Positions 1,259-51,421 of a DNA stretch of 64,000 bases are shown one piece after another. Source of the DNA: Strigamia acuminata. Its lineage: Eukaryota. The notes beneath the pieces were generated by a model, which ran no database searches, was not told the origin of the DNA, and saw nothing but the letters and a program-made list of their open reading frames with translations. The stretch lies in NCBI GenBank assembly GCA_949358305.1, contig OX442314.1, positions 1,798,001 through 1,862,000 on the forward strand. The letters run 5' to 3'. A program made the position numbers and the translations under genes. Position 1 is the stretch's first letter. Every line of letters begins with the position of its first letter.

Positions 1259-1495
1259 TCAATCCTGGTCGTGGTCACAATTGCAGTTATCGTCGTCGTC
1301 ACAATGACCGTCTCTTTGATGATCATTCTGACATTGATCTTGGCATTCATTTCCGTCACACGCATTTGCTGTCATGGCTAATCGGATGAAAACATGTCGA
1401 TGCTAAAAAAATTAATAGATTATTTTTCATGCAAAATATAACTTACCCATGAACGACAGAATTACAAGGAACAAGATGAATGCTAGATATTTCAT
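1259..1495 (-). CDS. Secreted CS-alpha/beta (defensin/toxin-like) peptide 1, strongly anionic, 55 aa
   Basis: Exons 1495-1447 and 1377-1259 with a 69-nt GTAAGT...TAG phase-1 intron. Translation: MKYLAFILFLVILSFMAMTANA-CDGNECQDQCQNDHQRDGHCDDDDNCNCDHDQD*. Cys pattern C-x4-C-x3-C-x9-C-x5-C-x-C; AATAAA downstream. Confidence 0.8.
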
Positions 1496-2496
1496 TTTCG
1501 ACTGATGAAACAAGTTGGAGAAACAAATTGACCGGTGGCTTGTGCAAGATTTTGTTAGCAGGATGTGACTGCTCCAGATTGCCTTAGTTGATATACACAA
1601 AATGTAATTACAGTTAATGGCCATGTGTGGAATTCAATTGTTTCTATTCACTTGATTTCATTACACAATAACTTTTAATGTTTTAATTAATTAAAATGAA
1701 TTGATAGCTGAGTAACAATCAGGAAAATGCAATTAAACTATACTTGACACGAGTTAAGGTTATTTAAATTTTAAATTCTGAATTCTAAATTCTACTCCGT
1801 AATTTATAATTAATAATTTATCAATTGATTCTTACTTTTCCCGAGCCATTTTTAATCCAAAACTAAAAAAAAAAATTCAAAAATTGATGTAAATGATTCT
1901 ATCCTTTGACTATTTCATATTTATGTTGAAATTTAACCAATTTGTTATACATTTTCGAAAGAAGTGTGACAAATATAATTGAGATTGAAAGCAAAAGTAG
2001 TGGGTAAACAATGAACATTTCATGGATTTTTTTTAATTTTAATTTTTCGATCAATCTAATTTTTTTTAATTGTTTGATTTCGATCCACCAGCGCAGTCGA
2101 ACCACGCACGTGCGAGTGCCACGTCGGCGCGTGGCACCAGCAGACGTCGATGAGGTCAAGGTAGTGCCCAAGAGCGCTGTTAACAGGCGCAAGAGATATT
2201 TGTTGAGGAAACACACTTATTCGGCGCCGGATTCGTTGGAGGATTCCACGCCGTTTGCTCATCGCTTAGCGGTTACGTATTACCTGGATAGCAAGTAAAC
2301 GAACGGGAAGCGTTCATGGCAGGGACTGTCGATGATTGCTGTTGTGATTGCTGTTGTGTTTGAAGTGTTCGCGCTTGTTGTTACATGATTTTGCCATGTT
2401 GTTTGCAGTAGCAAATAATGCGATTAGCAAATTGATCGCAGCAAATATTCTTCGATTAATTCGTGCAAAACTCCGTTTTTATTCGCCTTTTTTTGA

Positions 2497-2880
2497 CGTG
2501 CAGGTGGCGAAAGAAAAAAAAAGGAATAAATGAATAAAATGCTAATTTCGTTTGTAAATGAAGGTTGTGCAAGGAAGCGAACCATCTCCCGCTGCGCTGC
2601 GACGAGATTGAGTAGAAATCCAAATTGCAGTTTCGCACATACATCGAGGACCGGACGGACGGGTTGCTGCGCACGTGTCCGGGCATAACAATGGCGATTG
2701 AACAATACGTGCATCAGAACGTTTTACCGCCCAACGTCATGCGCAAGATCCAGGAGGAGGAGATCCAGCGTTCCGACATCAGACTTCGAGTCATGCCCGC
2801 ACTGGTCCTTCTTGCCTCGACTTCTTGGCGCCCTCCTGCACCTAAAGCCGATGCCGTTCATCGTCGTTGGAAAATTGAGG
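2497..2880 (+). pseudogene. RNF216-like scrambled IBR/RING2-region fragment
   Basis: QFRTYIEDRTDGLLRTCP and NVMRKIQEEEIQR match the fuller copy, with stops and rearranged order. Confidence 0.7.
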
Positions 2881-3470
2881 ACACCTGACAAGCGAATTGA
2901 AATGAGATTGATTAACTTTTGTGACTCATCAATCATTGACTTACCTTCCGTTCTCCAAATGCTTGTAATCCTCGATGGCCTCGCGACACACGTGGCCGCA
3001 CGTGCACGTCATCGAATTGCAGCCATGTTGTTTGATGATATGGCGTTTGCACCGGGTCCACGTACGTAGAAACGCGTCGTCATCTAGTCCTTGACATAAG
3101 TGCCGAACTGCACTTCGGGTTTCTGCTCGATTTCGTTGCAGTGCAGCGGGAAATGGTTCGGTTGCTTGCACAATCTTCATTTACAAACAAAATTAGCATT
3201 TTAATTATTATTTTTTTTTCTTTCGTCACCTGTACGTCACTTTGACACAGTCGGGGTTGAGGCAGCGGAAGATCTTGAGGTTCGCGTCCGGAATGATGGT
3301 TCAGAAAGAGCAGTGAGGACACGACTCGAGGTCCGGGTTGTCGGCGCGTCTCCTTCTGAATCTTGCACACCACGGTAAAACATTCTGCAGCTCGCAGTAC
3401 TGGTCGAGGCATGCGAACTGGTAATATAATTGTCCTGACCGATGTGCATCTCTGCTTGCATGTGGCTGTG
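2860..3470 (-). pseudogene. RNF216-like RING1-IBR-RING2 fragment, inverted relative to its neighbour
   Basis: QAEMHIGQ... and RCKRHIIKQHGCNSMTCTCGHVCREAIEDYKHLENGR, with frameshifts. Confidence 0.75.
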
Positions 3471-3539
3471 CGAGCACTGCAGAAATGGATGTATTATAAG
3501 TGCCGGTTATTAAATTTATCCGAAGTTTAATTAATTACT

Positions 3540-3995
3540 CAGAAATACCTGACTCAATTTGCTGCTACCAAATTAAATCAATAAAACCGCCGGTTTTATT
3601 GATTTAATCTCGTGTTCTTTTTAAACAGAAGCCGATAGGCTCTTAGCCCTTTTCGTCCGACATTCGAAAATGAAAGCCGAAACTTGCACAGCTCGATGAG
3701 ATGAATTCGAAATCTCACGCGCTGAACTCGCGCCGTTGTGTTTGATTTGTGTTTGAATTGTTTGTTGATACAAAGTTGAATTTCGTCGGAAGATGGACCG
3801 CTAGACGGAGATCGATCGGTCGCAACCATTCGACCAACAAAATTATATGCGCCTCCATATTTCCAGTTGAAGATAAAACCCAAACGGCTTTCTCGAACTC
3901 CGTGAAACACAGAGCCACCAAGTAAACAAATCAATTTTAAAACACAAAGTTCCGAATCAATTTTTTTTTTAATTTAACACATGTTTCCATTGTTT
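3540..3995 (-). repeat. Dispersed ~450-bp cassette spacer (also ~22310-22870 +, ~30170-30600 +, partial ~35840-36085 +)
   Basis: Shared sequence gtggctctgtgtttcacggagttcgagaaagccg...gtttcggctttcattttcgaatgtcgga. It resembles a deletion derivative of 620-1170. Confidence 0.75.
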
Positions 3996-4167
3996 ATTTT
4001 TGTCACACGTCTAATGATGTAATGTGAAGATGTGCAATTTCTTCTCTTTAGTTGCAGGTTGTTTTGTTAGTAAAGGTCTAGTAAATAAAGCAGTCCATCC
4101 GTATAACGTTTTACATTTGACTTTATTTGATTTTATTCGAGAACAAAGTCGTTGCCGAGTAGAAGAT

Positions 4168-11325: not shown

Positions 11326-12776
11326 ATTCGTCCCGTTATACAGTATATAGCATGTAGTTTTTTTGTAATAAGTATGACGTCTACATTATTGCGCAATGCG
11401 CATGTTCAATTTAAAAGCATTCTGGTTCTGCACATCCGGACTGGTGTCATGGCGTCATGCTCTCACCATCGCCGTCGCCAAGAAGAACCAGTTTGCACAT
11501 TGGTTATATACATCATAAACACAGCAAACATCAAAGAAAATTATGATTTTCTCTTTGTATAAGGTATTTTGAACATATTTATTTACAAGTAGGATTTAAA
11601 AAATGTGATTTGATTCTAATTATGTAGGATATTTAAAACACTTAAAAATGCCAAAATTCAAACGGCGAAAATCTAAACGGGAAAGTGGATGGCAACGAGA
11701 AAAAGCAAAACAGCAAAAAAATTTGATGGCTGAAGCTGAAAACTGTCACAAAATAGATGCTCTCTTTCATACTGCAACATCATCCGCGAAAGATACATTG
11801 ATTGATTGTCACCAGGAAGAAAGCGTCGTTGAGGAAACAATAGAAGAAGAAGAAGAAGAAACACAAGTAAATATTCAGCAATGTCAAAGTTTCGAAACAG
11901 AAGAAATAAATGAGGAAATTGGCGAAAAAATTGATTATTTTCTACAACCTCAAAATGAAAATTTACCAAATTTCTTAAAGTTTCATCCGGTCCAGCCAAG
12001 TTTAGAATCAAAATGTAATTTAAAAGACAGAAAAATATACTTTCGAAAAGATGGCGTACGTAGATGCTGGTTAACTTTAGATGAAAATTGTGGAAAAATG
12101 TTTTGTTCTTTTTGCCTTGCTTTTTGTACGAATCCTTTGGAGCAATCTATTTTTATAAGTGGATATGTGTTAAATTTGCATAAAATAAAATAATACAAAT
12201 CTATCAAACAAATTCCACAGTCCTTGGTTACAAATGATGGGTAAAGTTGAGATATTTTGTTGAAATGTGTTGAAAATCTAAGATGGCGTCGGAGCAAAGA
12301 AAAGGCACGACCACACGTTTTGAGGTAAAAAAGTACACTGGTCTTTATTCAATTATTTACACAAAAGGAAAAAGTAAAGAATGCAGATGACACGCTCTGA
12401 GCACCAATGGAAACGGTGCACACAAATTTGGAAAAACCCCACCAATTAAAAGATTAACGTGGGGACAAGAACCTTGTACAAACTAGAACAGGTCAATACA
12501 CTCAAATGACAAATGGTAATTAATAATAAAAGTGTTACATGTTCAAATCAAAACATAATATTGAAGCCTAAATATGAGAAACAATAAAATCAGCAAATCA
12601 ATGTTAAATTCAAATCAAATATCAAAATCAATAATGTTATTATACAACACCTCAAAGCAATGTAAAAAATGGCAAATAAAATTACCCAATCACCAATATA
12701 GAAAGGAATAACAAATCAAGGTGGAAAATAGAAATACAAATGGCAATTTAAATAATGGTTTATTTAACCCGTAAAA

Positions 12777-14504
12777 TCACCCGATTTTCACACTGCCGGC
12801 CGGAGGATCACCCAATCTCACCTCCAACCATACGAGGCGTTGAACTGGTCGACGTAATTTTCCCCCATCCGCGAGCACGAGTTCACATGACCTAACTTTG
12901 TCATCGCGACCTCGTCTGACTTCGACCACTCTCCCCATCTTCCATTTCAAACGGGGTTTAAATTGCTCCTCAATTATCACAACGTCGTCAATTTGCAGCT
13001 CACGTTTGTCTGATTTTCCCGTTTGCACCTTCAGGTCCTTTAAATATTCACGGGACCAGCGTGACCAAAATGTTAACAACATGCGTTGTTGATATTGCCA
13101 CTGTCGAACGAATTCCTTTTGAGTCGGTTCGAGTATTTCAGTTGACCCTGAATCCGGCAAGTGTGTTTGCATGGTTCCCGTCAAGAAATGTGCTGGAGTA
13201 AGTGGTTCGGCTTCGCTTGGCTTCTCGTACACGTATGTGATGGGCCTACGGTTGATGACCGCTTCCGTCTGTGCCAAGAAAGTTCCAAATTGATAAAAGT
13301 TGAGGTGTGCAGATCCGATTACTTTTTTCAAGCAACGTTTAACTGTCTGCACCATCCTCTCCCAGAACCCTCCCCACCACGGTGCATTTTCTACAATGAA
13401 CTTCCACTCTATTCCCTTTTGAGCCAGATAATTTTGGAACGCCTCGTCTTTGGTGGAGCGTAAAAGAGATGAAAGTTCTAAATTAGCACGGTGAAAGGTG
13501 GACCCGTTGTCGCTGTATATCGTCTTTGGGAGGCCTCTACGACTGATGAATCGTTCAAACGCCCCCAAAAAGTCTGTTGTTGACAATGAGGGAACCAGTT
13601 CCAAATGCACCGCTCGAATGGTTGCGCACGTGAAAAGAGCTATATAAGCCTTGGTCGTTCGTCCCTTTATTATTATCGGTCCAGCAAAATCGACTCCAGT
13701 AACCGCGAATGGTTGGCACTTAGTCGTCCTGTCTGCTGGGAGGGGGCCTGGCACTTCTCGCATCAACCGTCCTTGAATCTTTTTGCAGACGACGCATTTG
13801 TCCAAAATCGATTTTAAGGTCCTCCTTGCGGATGGTGTCCAGTATAATTCTCGAAATTTAGACAGTGTGGCTGTCAATCCGCAATGAAGGACCTGTAAAT
13901 GAGAGTGTTGCAAAATTAATTTCGTGAGTTTATGGTTTGGAGGTAAAATCAAAGGTTGCACAGCGGTGTACAAATCTCGCGATTTTTGCAGTCGAGTTTG
14001 CAGTTCGATCAACCCCATCTCGTTCAGCTGTGGATTCAGGTCTCGCAATTTTGAATCCCTCTGAATTTGTCTGCCATCTCTCAATTGATTTATTTCCAGG
14101 CCATAAGCGTCCGACTGCGCGATTCGAATCAAGCTGAATTTCGCCCGTTTTATCTCAGCTGCAGTTAATGGACCTCGACCGCGTTGGCTGGCATCTGTCT
14201 GTCGCTTTCCAGCATTGTCAGCAAATCTGTAAACCCATGCCAGTGTTCGGATTGCTTTTGAAAACGATCCAAACCTGGCAAACGGGAAAATATTAGTTAC
14301 TGCTGTTTGCACGGCTTCGACGTGCGTTTCAGTCGTTTCGTCATCCTCTTCGACCGGCTCTGTTGGCAGGTTTGGCCAATCTCGACGACTTCCACGTAGC
14401 CAGTCCGGTCCCTGCCACCAAAGTTGCTCGGTTATCAATGCTTCTGCGTCCATTCCTCTTGTCAGGCGGTCAGCAGATTTTCCACGCCTGGCACGTGTCT
14501 CCAC
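12777..14504 (-). CDS. BEL polyprotein 3' part (integrase), separated by a 1-nt frameshift
   Basis: [20 protein letters not shown] zinc finger, [23 protein letters not shown]. The ORF ends inside the 3' LTR. Confidence 0.93.
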
Positions 14505-17500
14505 TCTTCAATTTTTGACTTCTCCCTTATCTCCAAAACTCGATTGTGGACGAAGGTTGGTGGTCGTTTGGATGTGTTCTTGATCCAATGGAGACATATC
14601 TGAGAGTCCGTCCAAAAAAATATTTCACCTGGCGTCATCAACTCCTTGATTTGGTCGGAGAGACGTACAGCAACCAGTGCTCCCATGAGCTCGAGTCTTG
14701 GCAGTGTAAGTGGTTTAACAGGAGCTACACGACACTTTGACAAAATGAAATTAGTCTCAATCAAATCACCATTAGAGTTCTGGATGTATGCCACCGCCCC
14801 ATATGCCTTCGGACTCGCGTCGCAGAATATGTGTACTTCACATTGGTCAAATTCGTCCTGTCCCAACCATCGTGGGATTTGAATTTTTCTTAGAGTGGGA
14901 ATTTGGTCGGTCCACTTCTTCCAATCAGCGCGCAACTCGTTGTCTAATTCGTCATCCCATGGCAAATTTCTCAGCCATAGGGACTGGAAAAACATGCGTG
15001 CTGTCACGGTGAATGGTGTAGCAAATCCTAAGGGGTCAAAAATTTGAGCAGTTATTTTGATTACTTCTCTTTTGGTCGTTTTCTTGCTAGGTGGGCAAGT
15101 TTCTACGACTGCTAGTCCTAATTCGTCCAAATTCGGGTTCCATCTAATTCCCAGCACCTTTGTGTCTTCATTAGACGTCAGTGTCGCGTCAGATGGGCAT
15201 TCCTCTCGAAATTCAGTTCTCAGTTCGGGCGAATTGGTTTGCCACTTAGCGAGTTCCATACCGGCTGCTGCAAAAATCAAGTTGGACTGGCAAAATGTCA
15301 TTAGCGCTTGAGCGACGGTCTTGAGCGACGAGATGAAATCGTCCACGTACAGACACCGTAACAACAACTTTACTGTTTCTGGGTATTTTTTTTCGTATTT
15401 GCGCAGGTGATGTCGGATTGTTGCGCTCAGTAAGAATGGACTCGGTGTAGCTCCAAATAACACTCGAGTCTGGCGCAGCACTTTCAATAATGCTTTTCCT
15501 ATGCCGTCCCAGCACTCATCGATCCAGAAAAATCTTGTTGCGTCGCGGTCCTTTAAAGCAATTTCGATCATGTGGAATGCTTTTTTAATGTCACCTATCA
15601 TGGCCACTCTCCCAAGACGAAATCCTAACAATATAAATATTAGTGACGGTAGAAAGTTTATACCTTTTGATAGGCAATCGTTCAAGGAGAGATAGCCCTT
15701 TCGATGTGATGAAGCATCAAATACGACTCGCAATTTCGTGGTGACGCGTTCCTCTTTGATCACCGGACTGTGTGGCATGTAGTATACTGGTCCAGTTGAA
15801 GTTTGGTTTGGTATCTCTTCAACAATTCCCATTTTTAACTGTTCATCAATGACTTTCTTGTATTCCAAGTAGAGGTTTGGCTGCTTTCGAAAACGACGAA
15901 TCAGCGACATGATGCGTTGTTCAGCTCCTCTGTAGTTGTCATCCAACTGGTTGGTGTCCACTATCCACGGCAGTTCCACGGAATATTTCGAACCCGTCCA
16001 TTTGATGGTTTTCTCAAATTTTTGTAACGTTTCTGCGTCGTCGTTGGTTTCGACCGACTCGTGGCGTACTCCAATCGGTTCCAGTTCCCACATCCGGCGC
16101 AAAAGGTCATCTGTTGATGGGGTAAGTGTAATTTTGTTTATTCTTACCGGTGCAGCAATAACTCTTGTTCCATTTGTGGTCTGTCCATGTAAAGTCCAGC
16201 CAAATTTTGTTTTCACTGCAATTAGATTTTCTTCTAAATATTCAGTTTGACCTGTCATTACACGCCAGTAATGATCCACTCCAATCAGCAAATCCACTTC
16301 TTTTGAATGCAACGCGACTTGTTTGCAGGCCACCTCGATTTTCCTTCGTTGTAACTCTGCCCTAAGTTGTCCATTTGGTTGCTCTCCGGGCGTGGATGTG
16401 ACGTGGGCAGTCTCAATGGCCTCGATCGTGACAGCGGGTGACTTCGAATTGGCGGGGCTGAGAATCAATTCGACTCTGTTGCGTATTTCCGACCTCGGCT
16501 CTTGTCCAAACACGGCCAAATTGATGGTTTCTGTTCCTAGAATTTTTAAGTTCAGTTTTTTCACCAATTCAGACCGTATGAAGGTGCGCTGGGCTCCTCC
16601 ATCGATGTAGCACACTCCCAACGTGGACAGTTTTGGTCCGGCCATTTTCACCATCTGTACCATCAAAAATTCGGACTTGGGTGGGCAGGTGGTGACCACT
16701 GAGTTGGAATGGACGATCTCCTCGGCGACCTCCGTAGGTTTTGGAGTGTCGCATATGTGGGTGTGATGTGTTCCTTCACAGCTGTAGCACTTCATTCGGG
16801 TCCTGCACTCCTCAGTCTTGTGGGGCACTTTTCCCAAGCATCGCAGGCAAATTCCCTTTTTTTGCAGCTTTTTGCGTCTCTCCTCCATCGTGAGCGGACA
16901 TCTTTTTCGGTTATGTTCTGTGGAATCACAAAATTGGCATTTTATTATCATTACCGACAATTGTGATGCTGATCCAGATCGAGGCTCCTTTTCTTTTCGT
17001 TTGAATTTCCCCTTATTGTTGTGGGCGTTATCCGTGAATGACGATTTGTTTGTTGTCGCATCAGGTTTTGTTTGTGTTTTCAACATGTCGTACTTGGCGT
17101 GTTTGGCGATGTGGTCGCTTAACCAGTCCATTAACCTCGTTATCGACCTCTCTCCATCGCAGTCTTTGTCATATTCCATGACGATACTGCGCGGAATGGC
17201 AGACGACAGCACGGGAAAAATGGTCCGCTGTATTTCCGCCAGGGGCACTTCAATGTTGGCTAAATTCTCTATATTTACCTCTACGTGCCTGTGTAGCTTT
17301 TGCAGGCCTACTCGATCTCGCTCGCTGTTAACAGAAGGTAAATTTATTAGATTCGACAGGTACTTGTTTTCGAGGACGATTTTGTCGCCATATTTCTTTT
17401 GTAGGCGTGCAATCGCGACGATGTAGTTTCCTGCGGTGATCTCGAGTGCCTTGATGTCGTCCAGCGCCTCTCCAATCAGGTAGGTTCTTAAATATAAAAG

Positions 17501-18064: not shown

Positions 18065-18100
18065 TTTGAATGATTTAGATTAGATGGGAAATTAAATAGT

Positions 18101-18118
18101 TCCCGGGTTTCGGCACCA
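18101..18118 (-). promoter_or_regulatory. Primer-binding site, tRNA-Phe type
   Basis: TGGTGCCGAAACCCGGGA lies one base inside the 5' LTR and is complementary to the tRNA-Phe 3' end. Confidence 0.85.
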
Positions 18119-21023: not shown

Positions 21024-21081
21024 TATGTGGCCCGACCGATCCAGTTTTCCCGGTAGAAAATTGGTTCCCAGTCCAGCCCTG

Positions 21082-21960: not shown

Positions 21961-22874
21961 AAACAGGGTAGAATAAAAGTAAAAAAAAAGTAAAAAAAAA
22001 ACATTTGTTGCAAGTAGAACCCGAGATAGACTTTCAGGCCTAGATTTGGAAATGGAAGCCAAAAGTTGTGAGATGACCGTTGTTCTATTTGTTTTGTTTT
22101 AAACAAAACAAAATATCGTTCTCATCCTTTTTGATTACTTTAGTTACAAAAGTATTGTTATTATTTCCATTATTATTATTATTATTCGTGGAACGATTTC
22201 GCGGATTTTGAGCAAAACGAGCGGGTCGAGGAAAATGATGGGCACAAACCGCGTTATATTAAATTAAAAACTGATAAATGTCCCCTTTATTTTTTACTGG
22301 TCACCGGCAGGAAAATAAACATTTTATTAGCGATATTGCAAACAAACAATATAAACATATGTTAAATAAAAAGAATTAATTAGAAACTTTATGTTTTAAA
22401 ATGGATTTGTTTACTTTGTGGCTCTGTGTTTCACGGAGTTCGAGAAAGCCGTTTGGGTTTTATCTTCGACTGGAAATTTGGAGGCGCATATAGTTTTTGT
22501 TGGTCGAATGGTTGCGACCGATCGATCTCCGTCTAGCGGTCCATCTGCAAACAAACACAAATCAAACACAACGGCGCAAGTTCAGCGCGTGAAAGTTCAA
22601 ATTCATCTCATCGAGCCGTGCAAGTTCCACCTTTCATTTTCGAATGTCGGACGAAAAGGGCTGTGAGTCTTTCGGCTTCTTTGTAAGAAGAACACGAAAT
22701 TAAATCAATAAAACCGCCGGTTTTATTGATTTAATTTCGTGTTAAATCAAATCAATAAAACCGGCGGTTTTAATGATTTAATTTGATAGCAGTAAATTGA
22801 TTCAGGTATTTCTGAGTAATTAAACTTCAGATTAATTTAATAACCGGCACTTAAAGTACATCGATTTCTGCTGT

Positions 22875-29570: not shown

Positions 29571-30708
29571 AATGTGATAAAATTATTTAAAGAATTGAGA
29601 TGACTGAAATTCAACGTTTTATTTTCTGTTCATTGAATTTTCATTCTTTTCTGTTTCTCTAGGAGGAGAGGAAGAAGAAGACAAATATTTTTTTACTTTT
29701 GGAGAAACCGGATTTCTTTCAACCTGATTTCCATTCGATTTTTTCAGAGTTTTTCCGATTTCAGGATTATTTTTGATCAGGAAAATTTTCGACCAGGATT
29801 CCTTTCGACTGGGACAATTTCCGACTTGTTTGAAAGGAATTCTGATCAAAAAATGACGGGCAAAAACCGCGATATATTGAATTAAAAATTGAAAACGTCC
29901 CCTTGATACTTCACTGCATCTCACAAGGAATAAAAAAATGCGGGATGTTGCGCCAATGCGTAAGATCAAGCATTAAAAAAATAAGATTAAAAAATTAAAA
30001 TTAAAAGAATAATTTTTGAAATTTCCAGTGTATACCCACTAATTTCACATTCAATCTCAATTAATTTTGTCACGCACCTTTTGCAAACAATAAATTGGTT
30101 AAATTTCAACATAAAAATGAAATATTCAGAGATTAGAATCATTTTCAAACATTTTTGCAATTTTTTTTTACTGAGCACCACCAGAAAAATAAACAGTTTA
30201 GCAATATTGCAAATAAACAACGCAAACAAATGTTAAATAAAAAAAAAATTGATTACAAAATTGGTGTTTTAAAATGGATTCGTTTACTTGGTGGCTTTGT
30301 GTTTCACGAAGTTCGAGAAAGCCGTTTGGTTTTTATCTTCGACTGGACATATGGAGGCGCATATCGTGTTTGTTGGTCGAATGGTTACGACCGATCGATC
30401 TCTGTCTAGCTGTCCATCTGCCGACGAAATTCAACTTTGTATCAACAAACAAACACAAATCAAAAACAGCGGCGCGAGTTCCGCGCGCGCAATTTCAAAT
30501 TCATCTCATCGAGCCGTGCAAGTTTCGCCTTTCATTTTCGAATGTCGACGAAAAGGGCGAAGAGCCTTTCGGGTTCTTTTTCCCGTTTCTGTTCACAGAG
30601 TTGAGCCGTTTTGGATATCAATAAATAACTGGCACATCGATTTCATAACTCAATCAAGGAAATCGAAGAAAAAAGATGAATTTTTAAAATCCTGCCACAG
30701 CAACGACG

Positions 30709-34614: not shown

Positions 34615-34739
34615 TATTTCCAATAAGTTGTTAGTCTTTTGTTTAAAATGTTATGTTTCCAATCAGTTTTCTTTCAGATGGAAATGTGTTGTAAATGTCT
34701 GAAATGAAAACTTATCATTTCTGGATCCGCACATGCCTC

Positions 34740-35283: not shown

Positions 35284-36397
35284 AATTTAAAACGTCGGAG
35301 ACTAGTCAATTGTAATGATTTTGTTCTAGCGTCGACCTAAAAAATGTTTAATTAATAATTAATAAAAACCTGTACACAACCGGATTTTAGATAATTTACG
35401 CGTTGACGATCACATTTATAACGTTTGCGTTAAGTGCAGCAGGAGCAGGAGGAAGGGGTGGTGGAGTTTGGTAGATAATGAGCACAATTACAGCAATTTC
35501 TACAAAAATATAAATAATAATTCTCTCGATGTAATTTAGTATCTCGAAAAAATCATTTCTTTGAATTCCCAGAATGGTTTTGGCTTTCTTAATTTTTTCT
35601 GTGCCATTCATCCTTAAGAAAATGTAAAAAAAAATAACTCTCAATTTTGGTTGAAAAAACAGTAACAGAAGCGAGTCATAGTAACGCTGCAGTCCAATCA
35701 CAATGCAGCACAAAATTGCACATTTTTAAAAAAAAAATTTCTCGAATTTGTCAAGATAAGTTACGTGAAATTTATTTTTCCCAAATTGTTTAAAAAAAAT
35801 TAAATTTTTGCAACTTGTCCAAATTTTTCTCTAATTTTTCTAGCGGTCCATCTGCCGACGAAATTCAATTTTGTATCAACACAACGGCGCGAGTTCAGCG
35901 CGTGAAATTTCAAATTCATCTCATTGAGCTTACAAGTTTCGGCTTTCATTTACGAATGTCGGACGAAAATGGCTAAGAGCCTTTCGGCTTCTTTGTAAAA
36001 AGAACACGAAATTAAATCAATAAAACCGGCGGATTTATTAATTTAATTTGATAGCAAATTGATTCAGGTATTTCTGAATAATTAATTAAACTATTTTAAA
36101 TATTTTAAAAAATTAAATTTTTGCATCAAAGTTCATTGAAATACATTACATTAATTATTCACTAAATTTCACAAAATTCATCAAATTTAATTAAGAATTT
36201 ATCAAATTTTATTAAAAATTTATCAACTTTTACTAAAATTTCATAAAATTTCATCAAATTTCACTAAAATTTCATCAAATTTCACTAAAATTTCATCAAA
36301 TTTCACTAAAAATTCAACAAATTTCACTAAATATTTATCAAATTACATTAGTAAGAATTCATCTAGATTTGCAACTCGGTTTGCAGTTCAACGTGTT

Positions 36398-36725: not shown

Positions 36726-37981
36726 ACTGGTTCCAACCGGTCTCCGCTTGGCGTCTAAAATTAACCTGGAAGTTTGATGTATCGCACTTTTTCGCTCACG
36801 CACGATTAAACGCATTTTTATTTCGTTTGAAAGGTGTCGAAGTTGCTAAACGCTACAAAAATGGTAGCAGACGATTGCTAAAGGTAAATGGAGTCTATAA
36901 ATTTTCTTTTTGAGCAATAATCTAAATTTTTTTTATTCTATATTTTCCTGCATCGAACGTTAGGCCTAACTCGTGGAATTGAATTCGATCTTTGCCCACC
37001 AGAACTCCTTTCGACCGCATTCTTTTTGATCAGGTAAACTTGACACTATTTAAAGATTGTGGCGGAAAGCTGACCCATGGTGATTATATGGATGTAACCC
37101 CCAGAGTGCACTCGATAAACTGTGTGTTGTGGAAACTAAAACAATGTTGTTGGTGGGTGTTTAGCCAACTCAAGTATAAATTTAGTTAATTAAACCAAAG
37201 ATTTTGGTTGTCAATAAAACTATTTCATACAGAATAACATGTTTAGTCATTTTATGCAAATTCCATTTAACACATTTATTTAGTTCAACCAACCAAATTC
37301 ATGCAACAAAATAATTTTGTCTGGTAACTTAGTCGTTGGTTGTCACCTATTTTAATAAAAAATTTGGTTGCAATAAATTTAATAATACGAAATTACGAAT
37401 AGCTGTCACGACAACACGTTTTTTTAGATTGTAAAGATTTGAAATTGTAGGATGCGTTTCACCTGTTCAGAGTATTATTAAAGGACTGCCTAATTTCACA
37501 CACGTTAATTGTTATTTTTAAAATTTCAGAATTATTAGCATACAACTTCAAGCTTATTGCTACTTTACTGGAGAAAAAAATGGAGAGAAAACGCCAGGAT
37601 TATTGTTGCAATCTGTGCGACTATTCGTGTTCATACATTTATCTCATGAACCGGCACATGCTCAAACACACTGGTGAAAAGCCTTTCAAATGTCAAATGT
37701 GTTCACTTTCATTTCGACTTAAAGCAAAGATGACTGTCCACGTGCGAATTCACACCGGAGAAAAACCATTCAAGTGCCATTTGTGTGATTATTGTTCCAG
37801 TCAAAATGGAAATTTAAAAAGTCATCTATTAATCCATTTGGGAGAAAAACCATTCAAGTGTCATTTGTGTGATTATTCTAGCAATCAAAATGGAAATTTA
37901 AAAAGTCATCTATTAACCCATTCAGGAGAAAAACCTTTCAAATGCCATTTGTGTGATTATTCTTGCAATCAAAGTGGGAAT

Positions 37982-40408
37982 TGTGAAAACCAACACGATT
38001 TTATGCGTTTTGATTATTATTGCCACTGTTTATTTGTTTTTCATGTTGATTATTAAATTTTAATTGTTTTTATAATAATGTGAAATTTTGATATATTGCT
38101 GATTTTAATTGCTCATTAATTGATGTGTTGTTAATTTAATTTTGACAAACTATTATTTTATTGTGTTTTATTTGAACCCTTTTGAAATTATATTTGTTTA
38201 GTTAAAAATAGTTGTTTTTTACTTCAAATCACTTATCTTTTCCATTCCAAGAATTCACCTACTTTTAAATGTGTAACCAATTATCTTGCGCTCCCCTTTT
38301 GGAGCGCATCATCTTTTCTCTGTGTGCTTTACTTGTAGCACAGAAATATTAGTCATTTCCTTTTTGTATATTTAATTATCGTTGTTTGAAAGAAAGAATA
38401 AACCAGTCTTGAGGAAGTTTTTGAGTAGAAAAGTCATGCTTCTTTATTTCTCACAAAAATTACATTTCAATTTGAAATAAGCATCCCAGGTAGCATTAAA
38501 TATTGGCGCAACATTGGCCCAATATTTGCTAAAATATTGGGCCAATGTTGGGACACAATATTGGGCCAATGTCGGGATGTAAGAAAACGCCAGATTGGCC
38601 CAATATTGTTTCCCAATATTGGGCCAATAATCGTAACCAATATTGGGCCAATATTTTGAACCAATATTGGGCCAATCTGGCGTTTTCTTACATCCCGACA
38701 TTGGCCCAATATTGTGTGCCAACATTGGGCCAATACTCGTAACCAATATTGGGCCAATATTTTGAACCAATATTGGGCCAATCTGGCGTTTTCTTACATC
38801 CCGACATTGGCCCAATATTGTGTGCCAACATTGGGCCAATACTCATAACCAATATTGGGCCAATCTGGTGTTTTCTTACATCTTGACATTTATTGGACCA
38901 ATATTGGTCTAATATTAAACAGGCCAATCGTGGACCATTATTTCTAATCATTTACAGAAAATATTAAAATTTTCAGTGTTTATTAATGGCAAAAAAAAAC
39001 AGTGAAAACCTTATATAAAATCCAATGAAAATTAATCCCATAAAAAATTTCTTAGAAATTTTATAGAAATCATCAGAAAAGGCCTTGTTAAAACTTTGTA
39101 AAAGTCAAACATTGGAGTATTCATCCACAGCTACAATATAAAAGTAAAGCAAAATCTGCAGAAGGCAGTTATACAAACTCGCATCAATTGCGATGGTGTT
39201 CCAATCATTAGATGAATAATTAAAATAAAAAATTAAAGAATTTGGTACAACTTTTTATTTCATCTGACTCTAGCAATGATAAATTAATTAAGTGTTGAAG
39301 TATAAATGATAAAACCTCCATGCTAAAGAAATATACATTATTTTGGTTGGAATCCAGACATTGTTCCAGACTTTTACAAAATGATCAAAAATGCATTTTT
39401 TGGCATAAAAATTTATGTTCTCAATATTTCAGCCTAATTTTTAGAGACAAGTGTAAAAAACACTGAGGAATTCAAAAATTTGGTCAGTTTTTGATAATTC
39501 CAATTTCTAAGTGACTGTTGCCAGATTGATCCATTATTGGATTTACAATATTGGCCAATTAATGGCAACCAACGTACAGCCAATATTGGCTAACAAACGG
39601 CTAGTTAATATTGGACCAATATCAACAACCAATATTGGGCCAACATTGGCTCAGACATTGCAACCGAATATTGGCTTGCCAATCTTTAGCCAATATTGGG
39701 CCAATATTGTATTCCAAATAATGGCCAATCAATGGCTGCCTACCGACAGCCAATATTGGCTAACAATTGGCTATTTAATATTGGGCCAATATTGCCAGCC
39801 AATATCGGGCCAACATTGGGTCTGGCGTGGAAACCCAATATTGGCTTGCCAATCCTTAGCCAACATTGGGCCAATATTGTATTCCCAATCAATGGCCAAT
39901 CAATGGCTGCCTATCAACAGCCAATATTGGCTAACAATTGGCTAGTTAATATTGGGCCAATATTGCCGGCCAATATCGGGCCAACATTGGGTCTGGCATG
40001 GAAACCCAATATTGGCTTGCCAATCCTTAGCCAACATTGGGCCAATATCGTATTCCCAATATTGGCCAATTAATGGCTGCCTATCGACAGCCAATATTGG
40101 CTAACAATTGGCTGGTTGATATTGGGCCAATGTTGCCAGCCAATATCGGGCCAACATTGGGTCTGGCATGGAAACCCAATATTGGCTTGCCAATCCTTAG
40201 CCAACATTGGGCCAATATCGTATTCCCAATATTGGCCAATATTATGTTCCCAATATTGTACCAATATTGGTTGAAGGTTGGTTATATTGGCCAGCAGAAC
40301 CCCAAGATACCCGATATTGGTCCAATATTGGCCCAATATATAATGCTACCTGGGATTGTTATTCAGGGATTTAATTATTTTATCCGCAATACCTTATTGC
40401 ATTTCAAA
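37982..40408 (+). mobile_element. BEL-like solo LTR (~555 bp) carrying a nested insertion
   Basis: Starts TGTGAAAA like the BEL LTR in sense orientation, has an internal AATAAA and ends tgcatttcaaa. 5-bp TSD GGAAT at 37977-37981 and 40409-40413. Confidence 0.75.
38485..40354. mobile_element. Non-autonomous EnSpm/CMC-like DNA transposon
   Basis: TIR CCCAGGTAGCATTA / TAATGCTACCTGGG with a 2-bp TSD (AT). Both subterminal regions are arrays of the palindrome CCAATATTGG, around an AT-rich core. The superfamily is inferred from the termini. Confidence 0.8.
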
Positions 40409-42196
40409 GGAATTTAAGAAGTCATTTATTAACCCATTCAGGAGAAAAACAATTCAAGTGCCATTTGTGTGATTTTTCTTGCAATCAAAGTGGGAGTTTA
40501 AAAGGTCATCTATTAACCCATACTGGAGAAAAACCTTTCAAATGCCATTTGTGTGATTATTCTTGCAATCAAAATGGATCCTTAAAAAGACATTTATTAA
40601 CCCATACTGGAGAAAAACCATTCAAGTGCCATTTGTGTGATTATTCTTGTAATCAAAGTGCGAAATTAAGAAGACATCTATTAACCCACACTGGAGAAAA
40701 ACCATTCAAATGCCATTTGTGTGATTATTCTTGCAATCAAAATGGGTCCTTAAAAAGACATTTATTAACCCATACTGGAGAAAAACCATTCAAGTGCCAT
40801 TTGTGTGATTATTCTTGTAATCAAAGTGCGAAATTAAGAAGACATCTATTAACCCACACTGGAGAAAAACCATTCAAGTGCCATTTGTGTGATTTTTCTT
40901 GCAATCAAAGTGGGAGTTTAAAAGGTCATCTATTAACCCATACTGGAGAAAAACCTTTCAAATGCCATTTGTGTGATTATTCTTGCAATCAAAATGGGTC
41001 CTTAAAAAGACATTTATTAACCCATACTGGAGAAAAACCATTCAAGTGCCATTTGTGTGATTTTTCTTGCAATCAAAGTGGGAGTTTAAAAGGTCATCTA
41101 TTAACCCATACTGGAGAAAAACCTTTCAAATGCCATTTGTGTGATTATTCTTGCAATCAAAATGGGTCCTTAAAAAGACATTTATTAACCCATACTGGAG
41201 AAAAACCATTCAAGTGCCATTTGTGTGATTATTCTTGTAATCAAAGTGCGAAATTAAGAAGACATCTATTAACCCATACTGGAGAAAAACCTTTCAAATG
41301 CCATTTGTGTGATTATTCTTGCAATCAAAATGGGTCCTTAAAAAGACATTTATTAACCCATACTGGAGAAAAACCATTCAAGTGCCATTTGTGTGATTAT
41401 TCTTGTAATCAAAGTGCGAAATTAAGAAGTCATTTATTAACCCATTCAGGAGAAAAACAATTCAAGTGTCATTTGTGTGCTTATTCTTGCAATCAAAGTG
41501 GGAATTTAAGAAGTCATTTATTAACCCATACTGGAGAAAAACCATTCAAGTGTCACTTGTGTGCTTATTCGTCTAACCAAAATGCTCGTTTGAAAACTCA
41601 TTTAAGAAAGCACAGAAATTAAAAGATTTCGTATCGTTCATTCCATTCATAAAATTTAAGGTGAAAACGGTTGATTTCTGCTTTTATTAGGGCAATTCAA
41701 CTTTTACCCTTTTGAAAAATTTAGAAAAAGTAAATCTGGAGATTCGGATATTTATCTTGCTTAATTTCCAATTTTTGAAACTCAAACAAAACATGCATTG
41801 TATAAGAAATGTTAACATCATCTTTCTGCCATTTTTAAATTGGTGTTTGCCATTTTTTAATTAGCTGTTGGCGTATTTAATTATTTTAGATTAGAATTTG
41901 CCATTTTTCCTTATTTCAATTACATTTTGTTGTGTTTATTCATTTTCAATTACATTTTGTTGTTTTTCTTCATTTTCAATTACATTTTGTTGTTTTTCTT
42001 CATTTTCAATCGAATTTTGTTGTGTTTGTTTATTTTCAATTACATTTTGTTGTGTTTATTCATTTTCAATTACATTTTAAACTTTTCTTTATTTTAAATG
42101 AAATTTAGCCATATTTTTTTATTTTAAATGAAATTTAGTCATTTTTTTTCATTTTAAATAAAATTTTATCCATATTACTTTATTGTAAGTTAAATA

Positions 42197-47140: not shown

Positions 47141-47360
47141 TCAGCATTTGCATGTACTGCTGTCGAGACAAGTACCTCCCCCACCTCTTAATCTGCATTT
47201 TTCTTTGCATTTATCAGCTTCACAGGCTGCCATAGCCGTCATTGCTAATCAAATCAAAACATGTCAATGGCAACTAATGAATTCATTATTTTTGTGCAAA
47301 ATATAACTTACTCATGCACGACAGAATTACGAGGAGCAAGATGGTTGCTAAATATTTCAT
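47141..47360 (-). CDS. Secreted CS-alpha/beta (defensin/short-toxin-like) peptide 2, 50 aa
   Basis: Exons 47360-47312 and 47244-47141 with a 67-nt phase-1 GT-AG intron. Translation: MKYLATILLLVILSCMTMTAMA-ACEADKCKEKCRLRGGGGTCLDSSTCKC*. TATA upstream and AATAAA downstream. Confidence 0.85.
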
Positions 47361-47453: not shown

Positions 47454-47461
47454 TTTATATA
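47454..47461 (-). promoter_or_regulatory. TATA box of peptide gene 2
   Basis: TATATAAA ~95 nt upstream of the ATG, at the same relative position as in peptide gene 3. Confidence 0.6.
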
Positions 47462-48383
47462 GATGGTGATTAATTTAATGGCCATGTATGGAGTTTAATT
47501 GTTTCGATTCAATTGATTTCATGAGAGACAATAAATTTTAACATTTTAGTTAGGTTAAAATAATTTGATTGCTGAATAACAATAAGAGGAATGCAATTAA
47601 ACTATATATTTCACACGGGGCAAGGTTATTTTTAAATTGCGAGTTAATTCTAATTAATAATTTATATAATTTATCAATTTATTCTCTCTTCTCTTAAGCC
47701 CAACACTATTGACATTAAAAAAAATTTTTAGCATCCAAACCGGGTCTTTTTTTTTCCTTAAAATTTGGTTTTATAACAGAAAAATGGACTTTTTTAAATT
47801 TAAAATCAGATGTTTTTGCTTACAAGTGAGTTTTAAATTGAGTTATAAGGGCTCAAAATTTAGTTTTTTGAGCTAAAAGTGAGTCATTTGACCAAAATGT
47901 TTCGTTGTTTCGATGTTACATTCCAAAGTCTGCCAGATACGCAAATTCCAATTGGGGGAATCGATTTTTTAGGTTATTTTATGTCTAATCAGCACGTTTT
48001 TGGCACTTTTTCAATTTTGGCCATTTTTCTAAGGTTAGCCTTTGACTTGTGTCTCCTTTAGGAAATTGCAATTTTATTAAAAAATTTTAGTACTAAAGAT
48101 TTGAGGAGTAGTCATTATTAGACTAAATGTTGCTCTACAAGTTTACAATTGGAAATTTCTGTCTATCTCTAACGGTTTCCAAGATAATTTTCCAATGACA
48201 TTGATTGAACATCCCAAGGTCAAATTTTGGGTCACCAAAAAATTGCCCCACCCAACTATAATACTTTACCATCATTGGATTAGATGCATTGTCAGCCACC
48301 TGTATAGAAATGACCATATATGGAGTTTAATTGTTCTATTCAATTGATTTCATGAGAGACAATAAATTTTAACATTTTAATTA

Positions 48384-48574
48384 GGGGCCATCCATAAATT
48401 CCTGAACCCCCACCCCCTAATTACTGAAATCCCGCCCCCAAATTTTCCAAAAATTGTATAAAAAATGATTATACTTTGATTATTTAAAATTAAATTTTTT
48501 TTTTACATGGGATGTAACAAAATTTGAAACCGCCCCTCCCCCCTTGTTGCGTTACGTAATTTATGGACGGCGCC
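48384..48574. mobile_element. PIF/Harbinger-type MITE
   Basis: TIR GGGGCCATCCATAAATT / AATTTATGGACGGCGCC, flanked by TTA on both sides. Confidence 0.65.
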
Positions 48575-48707
48575 TTAATTAAATTGTTCAAAAAGGATTA
48601 AAATTGATTTAAATCAAAATGTCTTTTCTAGCAATTTTCCCATTCATTTATTTAGTATTTTTTACTTTGTTTACAAAACTATTATTATTTTATTTTTGTT
48701 TAAATTT

Positions 48708-50600
48708 TCAGTATTCCGACGAGAAATCGGGCACAAATTTAATAAGCATCGCTCGTTTCGCACCCAAGTTCAACGACGACAGTCCGACACGTCCTTTGGC
48801 AGGAAAACACTCACTTCCGCTGTCCAATAAGACGCTGCCGAAGTTAGGAAATGCGTACACGTCGGCCGGTGTCGCGCGCGCTCCGACATAATCGATCGGT
48901 TTCATTTTCGGCTGTGCGGTCAAATCGACGCCGGTCGCATTCGCCCCGAAATTGACCAAAACCAACAAACCCGGCGAACCTCTCTTGACGCGAGCGAACC
49001 CGAAAACGTCGTCGACGACCCGCAAAAACGCCACGGAGCCGAACTTGGCCGCAGTTTCGTCGCGAAACGTCAACAATTTCTTGTACGTGCGAACGTGCGA
49101 CCGACAACTCGATCCGAGCTGAGTCTGCAAACAAAAATACACAAAAAATAGTTGTTTCGGTCATTATTTTGTAAGAATACCTCGACGTCGATTCCCGCTT
49201 TGTAATTCGCACTCAACCGAAACCAGGCTTTCACGTTCGCGCCGGTGAAGCCCGCGTTCGGTTCCTCGGCGGTCCACTGCATGGGCGAAATACTCTCGTC
49301 GAAATCTCGCATTCCGATCTCCTCCCCGTAATACGTGATGGGCGTGCCGGTGAACATCGTGGTAATCATGTTCAGTCCGTCGACGAGGCGGGCGTCGACC
49401 TTGTCGGTGACGCGAGGCCGATCGTCACTTCCGAGCGCCCAGTTGGGCCACCCGCCATCCGGCACGGCGTCCAGAAATCTGCGGACGAGTCCCAGAACGT
49501 CCGTCGCATTTGTATTTTCGTCCAAATTGTCGACCAATCGGAAATTGAGAGGGAAATCAATCCCGCTGCCGTACAACATTCGCATCGTGTCCTCCGAGTC
49601 GCTCGTCGCATCCACCGTTAAAAATCTATTAATAAATAAAAATAAATAAAATAAAATAAAATAAATCAATAATACGTACACGTGTCCCGTGTCGTTGTTG
49701 TTCGAGGAATAATCGTCCAAGTGCGACCTCCACTCGGCCAAGAGATGTGTGTGATTTACACGACCGTAGTCGTTTGCGGCATTCACTCGGAATCCTCGAA
49801 CGCCCAGGTCCAGCCAATAGGTGAGCACGTCCCGCAACTCCCGCCGCACTCGTTCCGAGCGCAAATTCAAATCCGGTTGGTCCGGATGGAATCGGTGCAA
49901 GTAGTATTGTCCGCGCAGCTGGTCGAAACTCCAGGCCGAACCGTCCTGCAAAGAAAAATGTAAAAAATAAATTACATAAATTTAATTCAATTTCGTACAC
50001 TTTCGTTCGGCGGTCGTCGGTTGCCGACTCCGTCTCGCGCGCCCTCGTGCCAGATGTAGTAGTTGGTGTAAGGATCGACGTGGCGACGGCTCCGTTCGAA
50101 CCAGACCGACGTGTTGCTCGTGTGGTTGGGCACGAAATCCAAAATCAATTCGATGCCTTTCGAGTTCAATTCTCCCACTAAATCTAGAAAATCCCACACA
50201 CTCGATCGCCGTGTGGTTCTCGACGTCGTAGCCGGATCGTCTCATCGGCGATTTGTAAATCGGACTCCACCAAAGCGCGCGAACTCCCAAATCCGCCAAA
50301 TATCCGGCGCGAGATTCGATCCCTGCGAAATTTATGAAATTTAGTTTAATATTTATTCATTTTCGTTTGTTCTCGAACCTTTGAAGTCGCCGAAGCCGTC
50401 GCCGTTGGAATCTTGGAAGGAGAGCGGGAATATTTGATACGCGGGGCTCGTCTGCCACCAATCGATGACGGGCGGCGGACGACATGGCGGCGCGCGCACG
50501 ATGATGACGACGGCGCTGGTGAGCATGAGGAGCCAACAGAGCCAGAACGCTCCAATCCTATTTTGGACCTCCACTGGCGTCTATCATTCGTTCATTTGTC
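48708..50600 (-). pseudogene. SLC3A1/SLC3A2-like (GH13 alpha-glucosidase fold) heavy-chain gene, probably disrupted
   Basis: TM segment [22 protein letters not shown], then [41 protein letters not shown] and GTPITYYGEEIGM. Frameshift near 50200; the N-terminus is unclear. Confidence 0.8.
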
Positions 50601-50619
50601 GATGATAATTTTCTGTCTC

Positions 50620-51035
50620 GCGTGACTCCAGCAAACTCTAGTGTCGATTCCTCCGACCTCTTTTCTGCCGACATTTCCACTCTAACTGACTGGTATACGT
50701 CTCATCCCGCGCATTTTATTACCGACCAATACCACCCTGAGGCCTTCGTTCGAACCACTCGCAGACACATGTTCGAACCTACCTCACATACCACTACATA
50801 CTTGTCGAAATCATTCCCTTTTCGGTGTTTCTCTTCTTGGAACAATCTCCCCCTCGAGCTTCGTTCTTCCGCCCTTATTCTTCCGCTATGTGTGTGTCCC
50901 ATTGCCGCGTCACTTCCATCGGCGCTTACATCGTCATTTATTATCTGTTCAATAATATTTGTACCTCACTTGTATCTCATTTCTTTTTACTCCTTTGGAG
51001 TGCGATTAAATAAATAAATAAATAAATAAATAAAT
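50620..51035 (+). mobile_element. 5'-truncated non-LTR retrotransposon 3' end
   Basis: SKSFPFRCFSSWNNLPLELR resembles a LINE ORF2 C-terminus and is followed by a (TAAA)n tail. Confidence 0.6.
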
Positions 51036-51195
51036 TATATAACCACCGGAAATGACGTAATATGCAAATTTTAAAACACAAAGTTTCTAATCAGTTTTTA
51101 TTTTATTTAACATATGTTTCCAGTGTTTTATTTTAATATTGCAAACATTTTTATTTTTATGCCGGAGCTCGAAGTTTGCACACTTTTGCCCTTAG

Positions 51196-51421
51196 CTATC
51201 CGCATTTGCATAGAGGGCCGTTACAATAACCGCCCTCTTTGCCTCTGCTTTTGCAACGATCTCTGCAAGCAGCGTCATCTTTACAGCCTGCATTAGCCGT
51301 CATTGCTAATCAGATAAAAACATGTCAATGCCCACTAATAAATTCATTATTTTTGTGACAAATATAACTCACCCAAGCACGACAGAATTACGAGGAAGAA
51401 GATGATGGCTAGATATTTCAT
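51196..51421 (-). CDS. Secreted CS-alpha/beta defensin-like peptide 3, 52 aa
   Basis: Exons 51421-51373 and 51305-51196 with a 67-nt GTGAGT...TAG phase-1 intron. Translation: MKYLAIIFFLVILSCLAMTANA-GCKDDAACRDRCKSRGKEGGYCNGPLCKCG*, with CxxxC, GGYC and CxC motifs. Confidence 0.88.

What the first reader, a model, noticed from the sequence alone, without database searches (positions are those of the whole stretch)
1259..51421. Hidden family of three intact secreted CS-alpha/beta defensin/toxin-like genes with hypervariable mature peptides
Seen: three minus-strand two-exon genes (1495-1259, 47360-47141, 51421-51196) are missed by the ORF track. Each has a 49-nt first coding exon, a 67-69-nt phase-1 intron inside a MKYLA... 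hydrophobic leader, a clean stop and AATAAA; two have a TATA box. Leaders, introns and several hundred bp of flank are clearly similar, but the mature peptides share little beyond six Cys and the GxC glycine (C...CxxxC...GxC...CxC). Known: this spacing defines the CS-alpha/beta fold of arthropod defensins and scorpion short toxins, and a phase-1 intron in the signal region is typical of scorpion toxin genes. Inference: a lineage-specific, diversifying antimicrobial or toxin family that automated annotation would probably miss.
Basis: partly seen in the sequence, partly recalled or inferred. Interest (0 to 1): 0.88.

Follow-up and report, generated by a model that had tools for sequence, protein, structure and literature searches.

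The report
Hidden fast-evolving centipede defensin-like peptide family
Three small intact genes in what is likely a soil-centipede genome encode predicted secreted defensin-fold peptides whose mature parts differ far more than their leaders and introns; they likely belong to a family of a dozen or more copies and are likely antimicrobial peptides of a kind that earlier searches of a close relative's genome did not find.

Summary
Observation confirmed. The three minus-strand two-exon genes are present as described, and they carry the only three CS-alpha/beta cysteine motifs in the window (1 hit in 40 shuffles). A neighbouring gene places the DNA close to the geophilomorph centipede Strigamia maritima. 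Gene 3 passes the Pfam Defensin_2 cut-off and models as CS-alpha/beta; genes 1 and 2 fit by cysteine spacing and paralogy only. Non-cysteine mature codons are 44-57% identical, introns 79-88% (p about 1e-4). Contigs of two public runs show 23-27 leader-bearing pieces but only 3 matching gene 2's mature core, so the family is likely 12-25 loci. Gene 1 is strongly acidic (net -11). None of the three has the scorpion K+-channel toxin signature, and the phase-1 intron is shared by scorpion defensin genes, so it is no toxin marker. Best reading: a diversifying host-defence peptide family (0.55); venom or gland toxin (0.22). Two papers found no defensin-type peptide in S. maritima. Expression and activity are untested. 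The scan has not noted this sequence on other DNA.

The parts
1259..1495 (-). g1: two-exon gene (exon 1447-1495, intron 1378-1446, exon 1259-1377); 55-aa precursor, predicted 22-aa signal, acidic mature peptide (net -11, 3 His, no hydrophobic residues from the first Cys on)
   Evidence: sub-threshold Pfam SLR1-BP and gamma-thionin; weak CS-alpha/beta-like model
1496..1840 (-). g1 upstream/promoter region, about 75-77% identical to those of g2 and g3; TATA degenerate
1056..1258 (-). g1 3' flank with AATAAA at 1207 and 1148; also present at gene-less sites
47141..47360 (-). g2: two-exon gene (exon 47312-47360, intron 47245-47311, exon 47141-47244); 50-aa precursor, mature net +2, ends at the sixth Cys
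   Evidence: no Pfam hit; 158-nt contig identical across exon 2 in both public runs
47455..47461 (-). TATA box of g2
48309..48385 (-). isolated fragment of the family's upstream region (94% to 47477-47554), no coding part
51196..51421 (-). g3: two-exon gene (exon 51373-51421, intron 51306-51372, exon 51196-51305); 52-aa precursor, mature net +3, insect-defensin-like sequence round the fourth Cys, C-terminal Gly (possible amidation signal, inferred)
   Evidence: Pfam Defensin_2 24.9 bits against cut-off 20.4; lucifensin and sapecin best PDB hits; model
51516..51522 (-). TATA box of g3
29965..30334 (+). gene-less paralogous site: sequence matching g1's far upstream flank (2078-1867) joins directly to sequence matching g1's 3' flank (1215-1056); about 650 nt holding the gene is absent, likely deleted
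22304..22461 (+). 3'-flank remnant without gene; its junction resembles that at about 30170
3875..4000 (-). 3'-flank remnant without gene

Best explanation
These three genes are intact paralogues that likely belong to a large, lineage-specific family of secreted cis-defensin (CS-alpha/beta) peptides in a Strigamia-like soil centipede, most likely acting as host-defence effectors against microbes. Shown: the gene anatomy, the six-cysteine frame, the homology of leader, intron and flanks, and the excess divergence of the loops. Inferred: the intron is spliced, a 22-residue signal is cleaved with no propeptide, three disulfides tie a helix to a beta-hairpin, and the 28-33-residue peptide is released into haemolymph or onto the body surface. 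Also inferred: copies are made by segmental duplication and lost again (the gene-less sites), and selection from varied microbial targets drives the surface residues apart while the scaffold stays fixed. Because the peptides carry few hydrophobic residues and range from net -11 to +3, they would act by binding specific targets (wall precursors, lipids, microbial enzymes, or metal in the case of g1) rather than by generic cationic membrane lysis.
For: g3 passes Pfam Defensin_2 (24.9 > 20.4 bits); its three best PDB sequence hits are insect defensins (E 0.001-0.002). Its model has helix 10-19 and strands 25-28 and 31-34, pLDDT 76, and the top structural rows are CS-alpha/beta peptides. Intron identity 79-88% and upstream identity 77-82% stand against 44-57% for non-Cys mature codons (Fisher p 3e-7 to 1e-4); dN is 0.80-1.09 in the mature region and 0.09-0.18 in the leader. 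All 6 Cys and the frame are kept in 3 of 3 despite indels. In two public runs 27 and 23 contigs lie on g2's splice donor but 3 and 3 on its mature core. The toxin signature is absent in 3 of 3 (definition from PMC8252768 passages). Other centipedes have CS-alpha/beta defensin-like SLPTX02 sequences, mostly labelled as trunk, whole-body or non-venom-gland libraries (PMC6878950 Fig. S41 text), and S. maritima's venom table has no SLPTX02 row. Intron length fits the 55-67-nt short introns of the neighbouring gene.
Against: No transcript or activity data. g1 and g2 do not reach any Pfam cut-off, g1's model gave 0 Foldseek matches and best Z 3.1, and g2 was not modelled. The first loop is short (4-5 residues), as in scorpion short toxins: g3's nearest language-model clusters are Toxin_2 (score 0.87, a lead only) and its best VIA rows are navitoxin and BmBKTx1 (Z 4.2 and 3.9, tied with defensins). 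Arthropod AMP genes are said to show little adaptive divergence (PMC4874389, search listing only), whereas a conserved leader with a hypervariable mature part is typical of venom families (own knowledge). My kappa-B-like pattern found no site within 700 nt upstream in 3 of 3 (pattern recalled). Mature dN/dS is 2.1, 2.8 and 0.64, so one pair is below 1. Of 14 listed differences in g2-like mature exons 13 are non-synonymous, which is not clearly above the roughly 77% expected from site counts. Gene conversion of leader and intron could mimic part of the contrast.
Confidence: 0.55

Rival explanations
1. The family is a venom or defensive-gland (sternal or leg gland) peptide family acting on ion channels or receptors of prey or predators, recruited from a defensin as in scorpions and robber flies.
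For: The host is likely a venomous centipede. The scaffold is compact and has no propeptide; nearest feature clusters are scorpion short toxins and the top structural rows include navitoxin and BmBKTx1. Large family with conserved leader and variable mature part. SLPTX02 defensin-like peptides were recruited into venom in Lithobius and Ethmostigmus. g3 ends in a possible amidation Gly.
Against: Lys-Cys4-x-Asn is absent in 3 of 3, though some scorpion blockers act without the classic dyad (PMC8252768 passages). g2 and g1 have no aromatic residue and g1 is net -11. S. maritima venom has 12 families, none filed as defensin-like, and its new peptide families are described as unlike any known fold. 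I could not see the GEOTX01 or CHILOTX01 sequences, so identity with them is not excluded.
Confidence: 0.22
2. The peptides are reproductive or social signals (seminal, spermatophore, brood-care or recognition peptides) built on the defensin fold, diversified by sexual selection or species recognition.
For: Wide charge range, few hydrophobic residues and rapid divergence. Defensin-like families serve as recognition signals in plants (PMC3525529, search listing only); g1's best Pfam row is a pollen-coat family, below cut-off.
Against: No expression data. g3 keeps an insect-defensin-like core. No centipede precedent came up in my searches, though none was aimed at this.
Confidence: 0.13
3. The copies are passengers of segmental duplications in a repeat-rich region; the loops drift under relaxed constraint while leader and intron are homogenised by gene conversion, and some or all copies are silent.
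For: The genes sit among many partial RNF216-like duplicates and transposons, with gene-less paralogous sites and a promoter fragment. One of three pairs has mature dN/dS below 1.
Against: 3 of 3 copies keep frame, six Cys, splice signals and polyadenylation signal although 43-56% of non-Cys mature bases differ. The mature codons differ more than intron, upstream and downstream flanks alike, which drift alone would not give.
Confidence: 0.1

Closest known systems
Insect-type (arthropod) defensins, Pfam PF01097: sapecin, lucifensin, insect defensin A
   Same: Six-Cys CS-alpha/beta frame; g3 passes the Pfam cut-off and aligns best with these across the helix and the fourth-Cys region.
   Different: Short first loop (4-5 residues; longer in insect defensins, own knowledge), no propeptide or dibasic processing site, few hydrophobic residues, one member strongly acidic; g1 and g2 below cut-off.
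Centipede SLPTX02 defensin-like family and 'CSabD' trunk sequences (PMC4379518 table; PMC6878950 Fig. S41)
   Same: Six cysteines ending in C-x-C, centipede origin, mostly non-venom libraries with occasional recruitment to venom.
   Different: The S41 tree text lists no Strigamia sequence, and many members are multidomain precursors, whereas these are single-domain. Their sequences were not visible to me, so homology is untested.
Scorpion short-chain K+-channel toxins (alpha-KTx, PF00451) and scorpion defensin genes
   Same: Compact CS-alpha/beta scaffold; two exons with a phase-1 intron (scorpion defensins: PMC6435467 abstract; toxins: own knowledge); feature similarity for g3.
   Different: Lys-Cys4-x-Asn signature absent in 3 of 3; no Toxin_2 Pfam row at E up to 10.
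SLPTX15 two-disulfide CS-alpha/beta centipede toxins (U-SLPTX15-Sm2a, PDB 6bl9)
   Same: Centipede peptides on a related fold.
   Different: Only Z 2.0, rank 33 of 35, 13% identity to the g3 model. The two-disulfide core is recalled; the paper (Dash 2019) was not held.
Expanded defensin-like families of ticks, Nasonia, mussels and plants
   Same: Multigene, signal-conserved, mature-variable families (search listings; own knowledge).
   Different: No sequence link shown here; these are analogues of the evolutionary pattern.

Membership tests
CS-alpha/beta (cis-defensin) fold | Six Cys with C-x3-C and C-x-C | tested here: met
   3 of 3
CS-alpha/beta (cis-defensin) fold | Gly two residues before the fourth Cys (gamma-core) | tested here: met
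   3 of 3, read from the translations
CS-alpha/beta (cis-defensin) fold | Helix packed on a beta-hairpin | tested here: inconclusive
   Clear in the g3 model (pLDDT 76), weak in g1 (pLDDT 68), g2 not modelled; no structural match at E 0.001 or Z 5
CS-alpha/beta (cis-defensin) fold | Disulfides 1-4, 2-5, 3-6 | not testable with these tools
   Model coordinates are not returned; needs mass spectrometry or NMR
Secreted peptide | Cleavable signal peptide | tested here: inconclusive
   Basic N-terminus, hydrophobic core (best 11-residue hydropathy 2.95-3.31) and A-x-A at residues 20-22 in 3 of 3; SignalP not available
Arthropod defensin PF01097 | Score at or above the gathering cut-off of 20.4 bits | tested here: met
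   g3 only: 24.9 bits; g1 and g2 gave no row, so 1 of 3
Arthropod defensin PF01097 | Cationic, amphipathic mature peptide | tested here: not met
   g1 net -11 with no hydrophobic residue; g2 and g3 +2 and +3 with 3-4 hydrophobic residues; partly met for g3
Arthropod defensin PF01097 | Antimicrobial activity and immune or barrier expression | not testable with these tools
   No RNA run could be laid; no assay
Scorpion alpha-KTx toxins | Lys-Cys4-x-Asn scorpion toxin signature | tested here: not met
   Absent in 3 of 3 (definition)
Scorpion alpha-KTx toxins | Short first loop | tested here: met
   4, 4 and 5 residues
Scorpion alpha-KTx toxins | Venom-gland expression and K+-channel block | not testable with these tools
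   Needs tissue RNA, proteomics and electrophysiology
Centipede SLPTX02 | C-C-C-C-CxC defensin-like frame | tested here: met
   Frame from the PMC4379518 table; 3 of 3
Centipede SLPTX02 | Sequence homology or placement inside the SLPTX02 tree | not tested
   The alignment lies in the cut part of the supplement; database searches returned no centipede relative

The most novel reading that the evidence does not exclude
Geophilomorph centipedes hold an unannotated arsenal of 20 or more positively selected mini-defensins that use a toxin-shaped scaffold and span anionic to cationic chemistry. It is the missing antimicrobial effector arm of the Strigamia immune system, or an unrecognised gland secretion, and it turns over by riding on duplications of an RNF216-like ubiquitin-ligase segment.
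Probability: 0.3. Interest if true: 0.65.

Novelty: new member of a known kind. Interest (0 to 1): 0.47.

Why it matters
[quoted passage not shown] This family gives concrete candidates for those missing effectors, with leader and intron sequence by which the rest can be found. It also offers a natural series of minimal CS-alpha/beta peptides from net -11 to +3 for studying how one scaffold is shared between immunity and venom. The pattern itself, an expanded and variable defensin family, is familiar from other lineages, which caps the interest.

Tried and rejected
No whole genome was held, so no genome-wide tBLASTn was possible. The run search listed no RNA holder; that says nothing on expression. 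No intron-skipping joint appeared among the joints shown (15 of 40, 2 of 2), but these contigs cover introns and intergenic DNA and behave as DNA. Word-seeded protein searches with the exon pieces found no homologue at 8-83 aa and none among 116 candidates at 84-2000 aa; short genes are often not called, so this is weak. The profile search of 1.84 billion proteins gave 1 hit, a fivefold-repeated insect-type defensin precursor filed under a jellyfish; it scores by summing repeats and is not a close relative. The Atlas search for g2 did not complete. Alternative acceptors giving 38-44-nt introns break the frame and are shorter than the neighbouring gene's reliable short introns (its 35-, 53- and 54-nt calls may be alignment artefacts); rejected. 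Conserved Cys codons (4-6 of 6 identical per pair) were considered as a conotoxin-like feature, but they match the intron's level of divergence. A relaxed search found no fourth leader exon in the window. Short-motif searches of the visible part of the Jenner 2019 supplement found no matching peptide, but the file is cut before most peptide alignments, so GEOTX01, CHILOTX01 and SLPTX02 sequences were unseen and may bear on the venom question. Dash 2019 was not held. Earlier scan notes held nothing with this sequence.
Full report
Observation. The three minus-strand genes are present at the stated coordinates. Enumerating all GT-AG pairs gives, with a 49-nt first exon and a 69-, 67- and 67-nt phase-1 intron, open frames of 55, 50 and 52 residues. 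Each has a basic-then-hydrophobic leader ending in A-x-A at residues 20-22 and a six-cysteine mature part spaced 4-3-9-5-1, 4-3-8-5-1 and 5-3-9-4-1. These are the only three such motifs in six frames; 40 shuffled windows gave one hit in all. TATATAA lies 101 nt above the ATG of g2 and g3 and is degenerate in g1, and AATAAA follows each stop within 53 nt. Short introns of the neighbouring RalGAP-beta gene are mostly 55-67 nt, so the proposed introns fit and the frame-breaking 38-44-nt alternatives do not. Splicing itself is not shown.

Host. An ORF over a RalGAP-beta exon region is 86% identical to the Strigamia maritima protein, against 53-60% for the other 119 rows listed of 706 hits, and several exons are 94-100% identical. 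The window therefore likely comes from a Strigamia-like geophilomorph centipede, a venomous soil animal. The species was not determined.

Fold and family. g3 exon 2 scores 24.9 bits on Pfam Defensin_2 (cut-off 20.4); g1 has only sub-threshold rows and g2 none. g3's best PDB sequence hits are lucifensin, sapecin and insect defensin A. Its model has one helix and two strands at pLDDT 76. Foldseek gave no match at E 0.001, but nearly all listed rows are CS-alpha/beta peptides, and VIA ranks navitoxin (Z 4.2, rmsd 1.5), BmBKTx1, a plant defensin and plectasin within 1 Z of each other. The g1 model is weaker (pLDDT 68; 0 Foldseek matches; best Z 3.1 to plant defensins). g2 was not modelled. The Atlas places g3 nearest scorpion short-toxin clusters at 0.87, a lead only. 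No close relative turned up in the protein collections.

Divergence. Pairwise identity is 77-82% upstream, 80-86% in the leader, 79-88% in the intron and 72-90% downstream, but 44-57% in non-Cys mature codons, with Fisher p from 3e-7 to 1e-4 against intron and upstream. Mature dN is 0.80-1.09, leader dN 0.09-0.18, and intron distance 0.13-0.25. Mature dS is 0.53, 1.46 and 0.29 on 11-14 sites, giving dN/dS of 2.1, 0.64 and 2.8, so positive selection is likely but not established, and gene conversion of the leader and intron remains possible. Net charge from the first Cys is -11, +2 and +3, with 0, 3 and 4 hydrophobic residues.

Family size. Two public runs from one study hold the region; they may include the window's source and are not independent support. 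Their contigs cover introns and flanks, so they behave as DNA. Laid on g2 at 80% likeness, 27 (X1) and 23 (X2) contigs cover the splice donor at 47312, while the mature core is covered by 3 contigs in each: one identical to g2 and two variants. Summed depth is 9790 and 2476 at the donor, 721 and 195 in the core, and rises again over the 3' UTR; the neighbouring glucosidase gene has 556 and 105. Summed depth is not a copy number and alleles can inflate contig counts, so I estimate 12-25 loci. One joint links conserved flanks across an unlike mature region. Of the 40 differences shown (46 not shown) I classed 22: 13 of 14 in the mature part, 1 of 1 at the end of the signal and 4 of 7 in exon 1 are non-synonymous when taken singly; the first figure is not clearly above neutral expectation. 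All contigs at 47312 differ from the window's letter there, which is unexplained.

Context. The genes lie in a duplication-rich region with about nine whole or partial RNF216-like segments. g1 sits just upstream of sequence matching the 5' region of one such copy, and an RNF216-like fragment follows g2. At 29965-30334 the sequence matching g1's far upstream flank joins straight to that matching its 3' flank, with about 650 nt missing. The retained flank holds g1's AATAAA region and is attached to all three genes, so deletion of a gene is likelier than insertion. Similar gene-less flanks lie at 22.3 and 4.0 kb. This suggests birth and death by segmental duplication (inference).

Function. The scorpion toxin signature is six Cys plus Lys-Cys4-x-Asn (PMC8252768, passages); it is absent in 3 of 3, although the short first loop is toxin-like and the same review notes blockers without the classic dyad. 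A two-exon, phase-I-intron layout is shared by scorpion defensin genes (PMC6435467, abstract), so it does not mark toxins. Centipede defensin-like peptides are known as SLPTX02 (PMC4379518, table passage). The tree text of that family lists mostly trunk and whole-body sequences, one from the geophilomorph Himantarium and none from Strigamia (PMC6878950 supplement part 20). The S. maritima sheet has no SLPTX02 row, and its venom has 12 families whose new peptides are called unlike any known fold (passages); GEOTX02 has 8 or 10 Cys (PMC7864903, passages). The supplement is cut, so GEOTX01 and CHILOTX01 sequences were not seen. Host defence is therefore the best reading (0.55), ahead of venom or gland toxin (0.22), reproductive signal (0.13) and passive duplication (0.10). 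g1 cannot be a cationic lytic peptide and would need a specific target or a metal-binding role.

Novelty. [quoted passage not shown] A 2022 myriapod genome paper has 0 occurrences of 'defensin' (PMC9151784, term search), as has the Lithobius gland paper (PMC11170834); PMC9325314 has it only in references. My searches on Strigamia plus defensin, centipede venom CS-alpha/beta, myriapod defensin and geophilomorph sternal gland secretion listed no paper describing this family; subscription journals, including Dash 2019 (title only), are not covered. PMC4874389, PMC3525529 and PMC4269947 were seen as search listings only. Expanded variable defensin families are known elsewhere, so this is a new member of a known kind that fills a specific gap in centipede immunity. 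Interest 0.47.

Noticed in passing
window 12168-18744: BEL/Pao LTR retrotransposon with 100% identical 625-nt LTRs and a 5-nt target-site duplication, so a very recent insertion; it appears to split a hAT transposase gene (11609-12190 and 18704-20845).
   Followed up: partly
window 340-42500: About nine whole or partial copies of an RNF216/TRIAD3-like RBR ubiquitin ligase in both orientations (E 8e-24 to human RNF216). RNF216 regulates Toll-like receptor signalling in mammals (own knowledge) and S. maritima has expanded TLRs; intactness of the copies was not checked.
   Followed up: partly
window 48711-50356 (-): Alpha-amylase-family (maltase or rBAT-like) gene between g2 and g3.
   Followed up: no
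window 50529-51014: Sequence resembling the 3' end of a LINE with a TTTA-repeat tail cuts off g3's 3' flank; no Pfam hit.
   Followed up: no
window 47312: All 27 and 23 contigs laid at the last base of g2's first exon carry a different letter from the window, although g2's second exon is matched exactly.
   Followed up: no
runs X1/X2 on window 47152 and 47238: Loose ends, read by eye from low-agreement consensus rows, suggest paralogues with a longer loop before the last two Cys and one with a non-Cys extension after the predicted cleavage site.
   Followed up: no
window 37451-41619 (+): Two C2H2 zinc-finger arrays separated by a tandem-repeat block (38.5-40.3 kb).
   Followed up: no
window 34666-35286 (-) and 53823-63745 (+): Adenylosuccinate synthetase exons and a RalGAP-beta gene running off the window end.
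   Followed up: partly
P0121: A 443-aa protein filed under the jellyfish Sanderia malayensis is five near-identical insect-type defensin precursors in tandem; possibly an assembly artefact or contamination.
   Followed up: no
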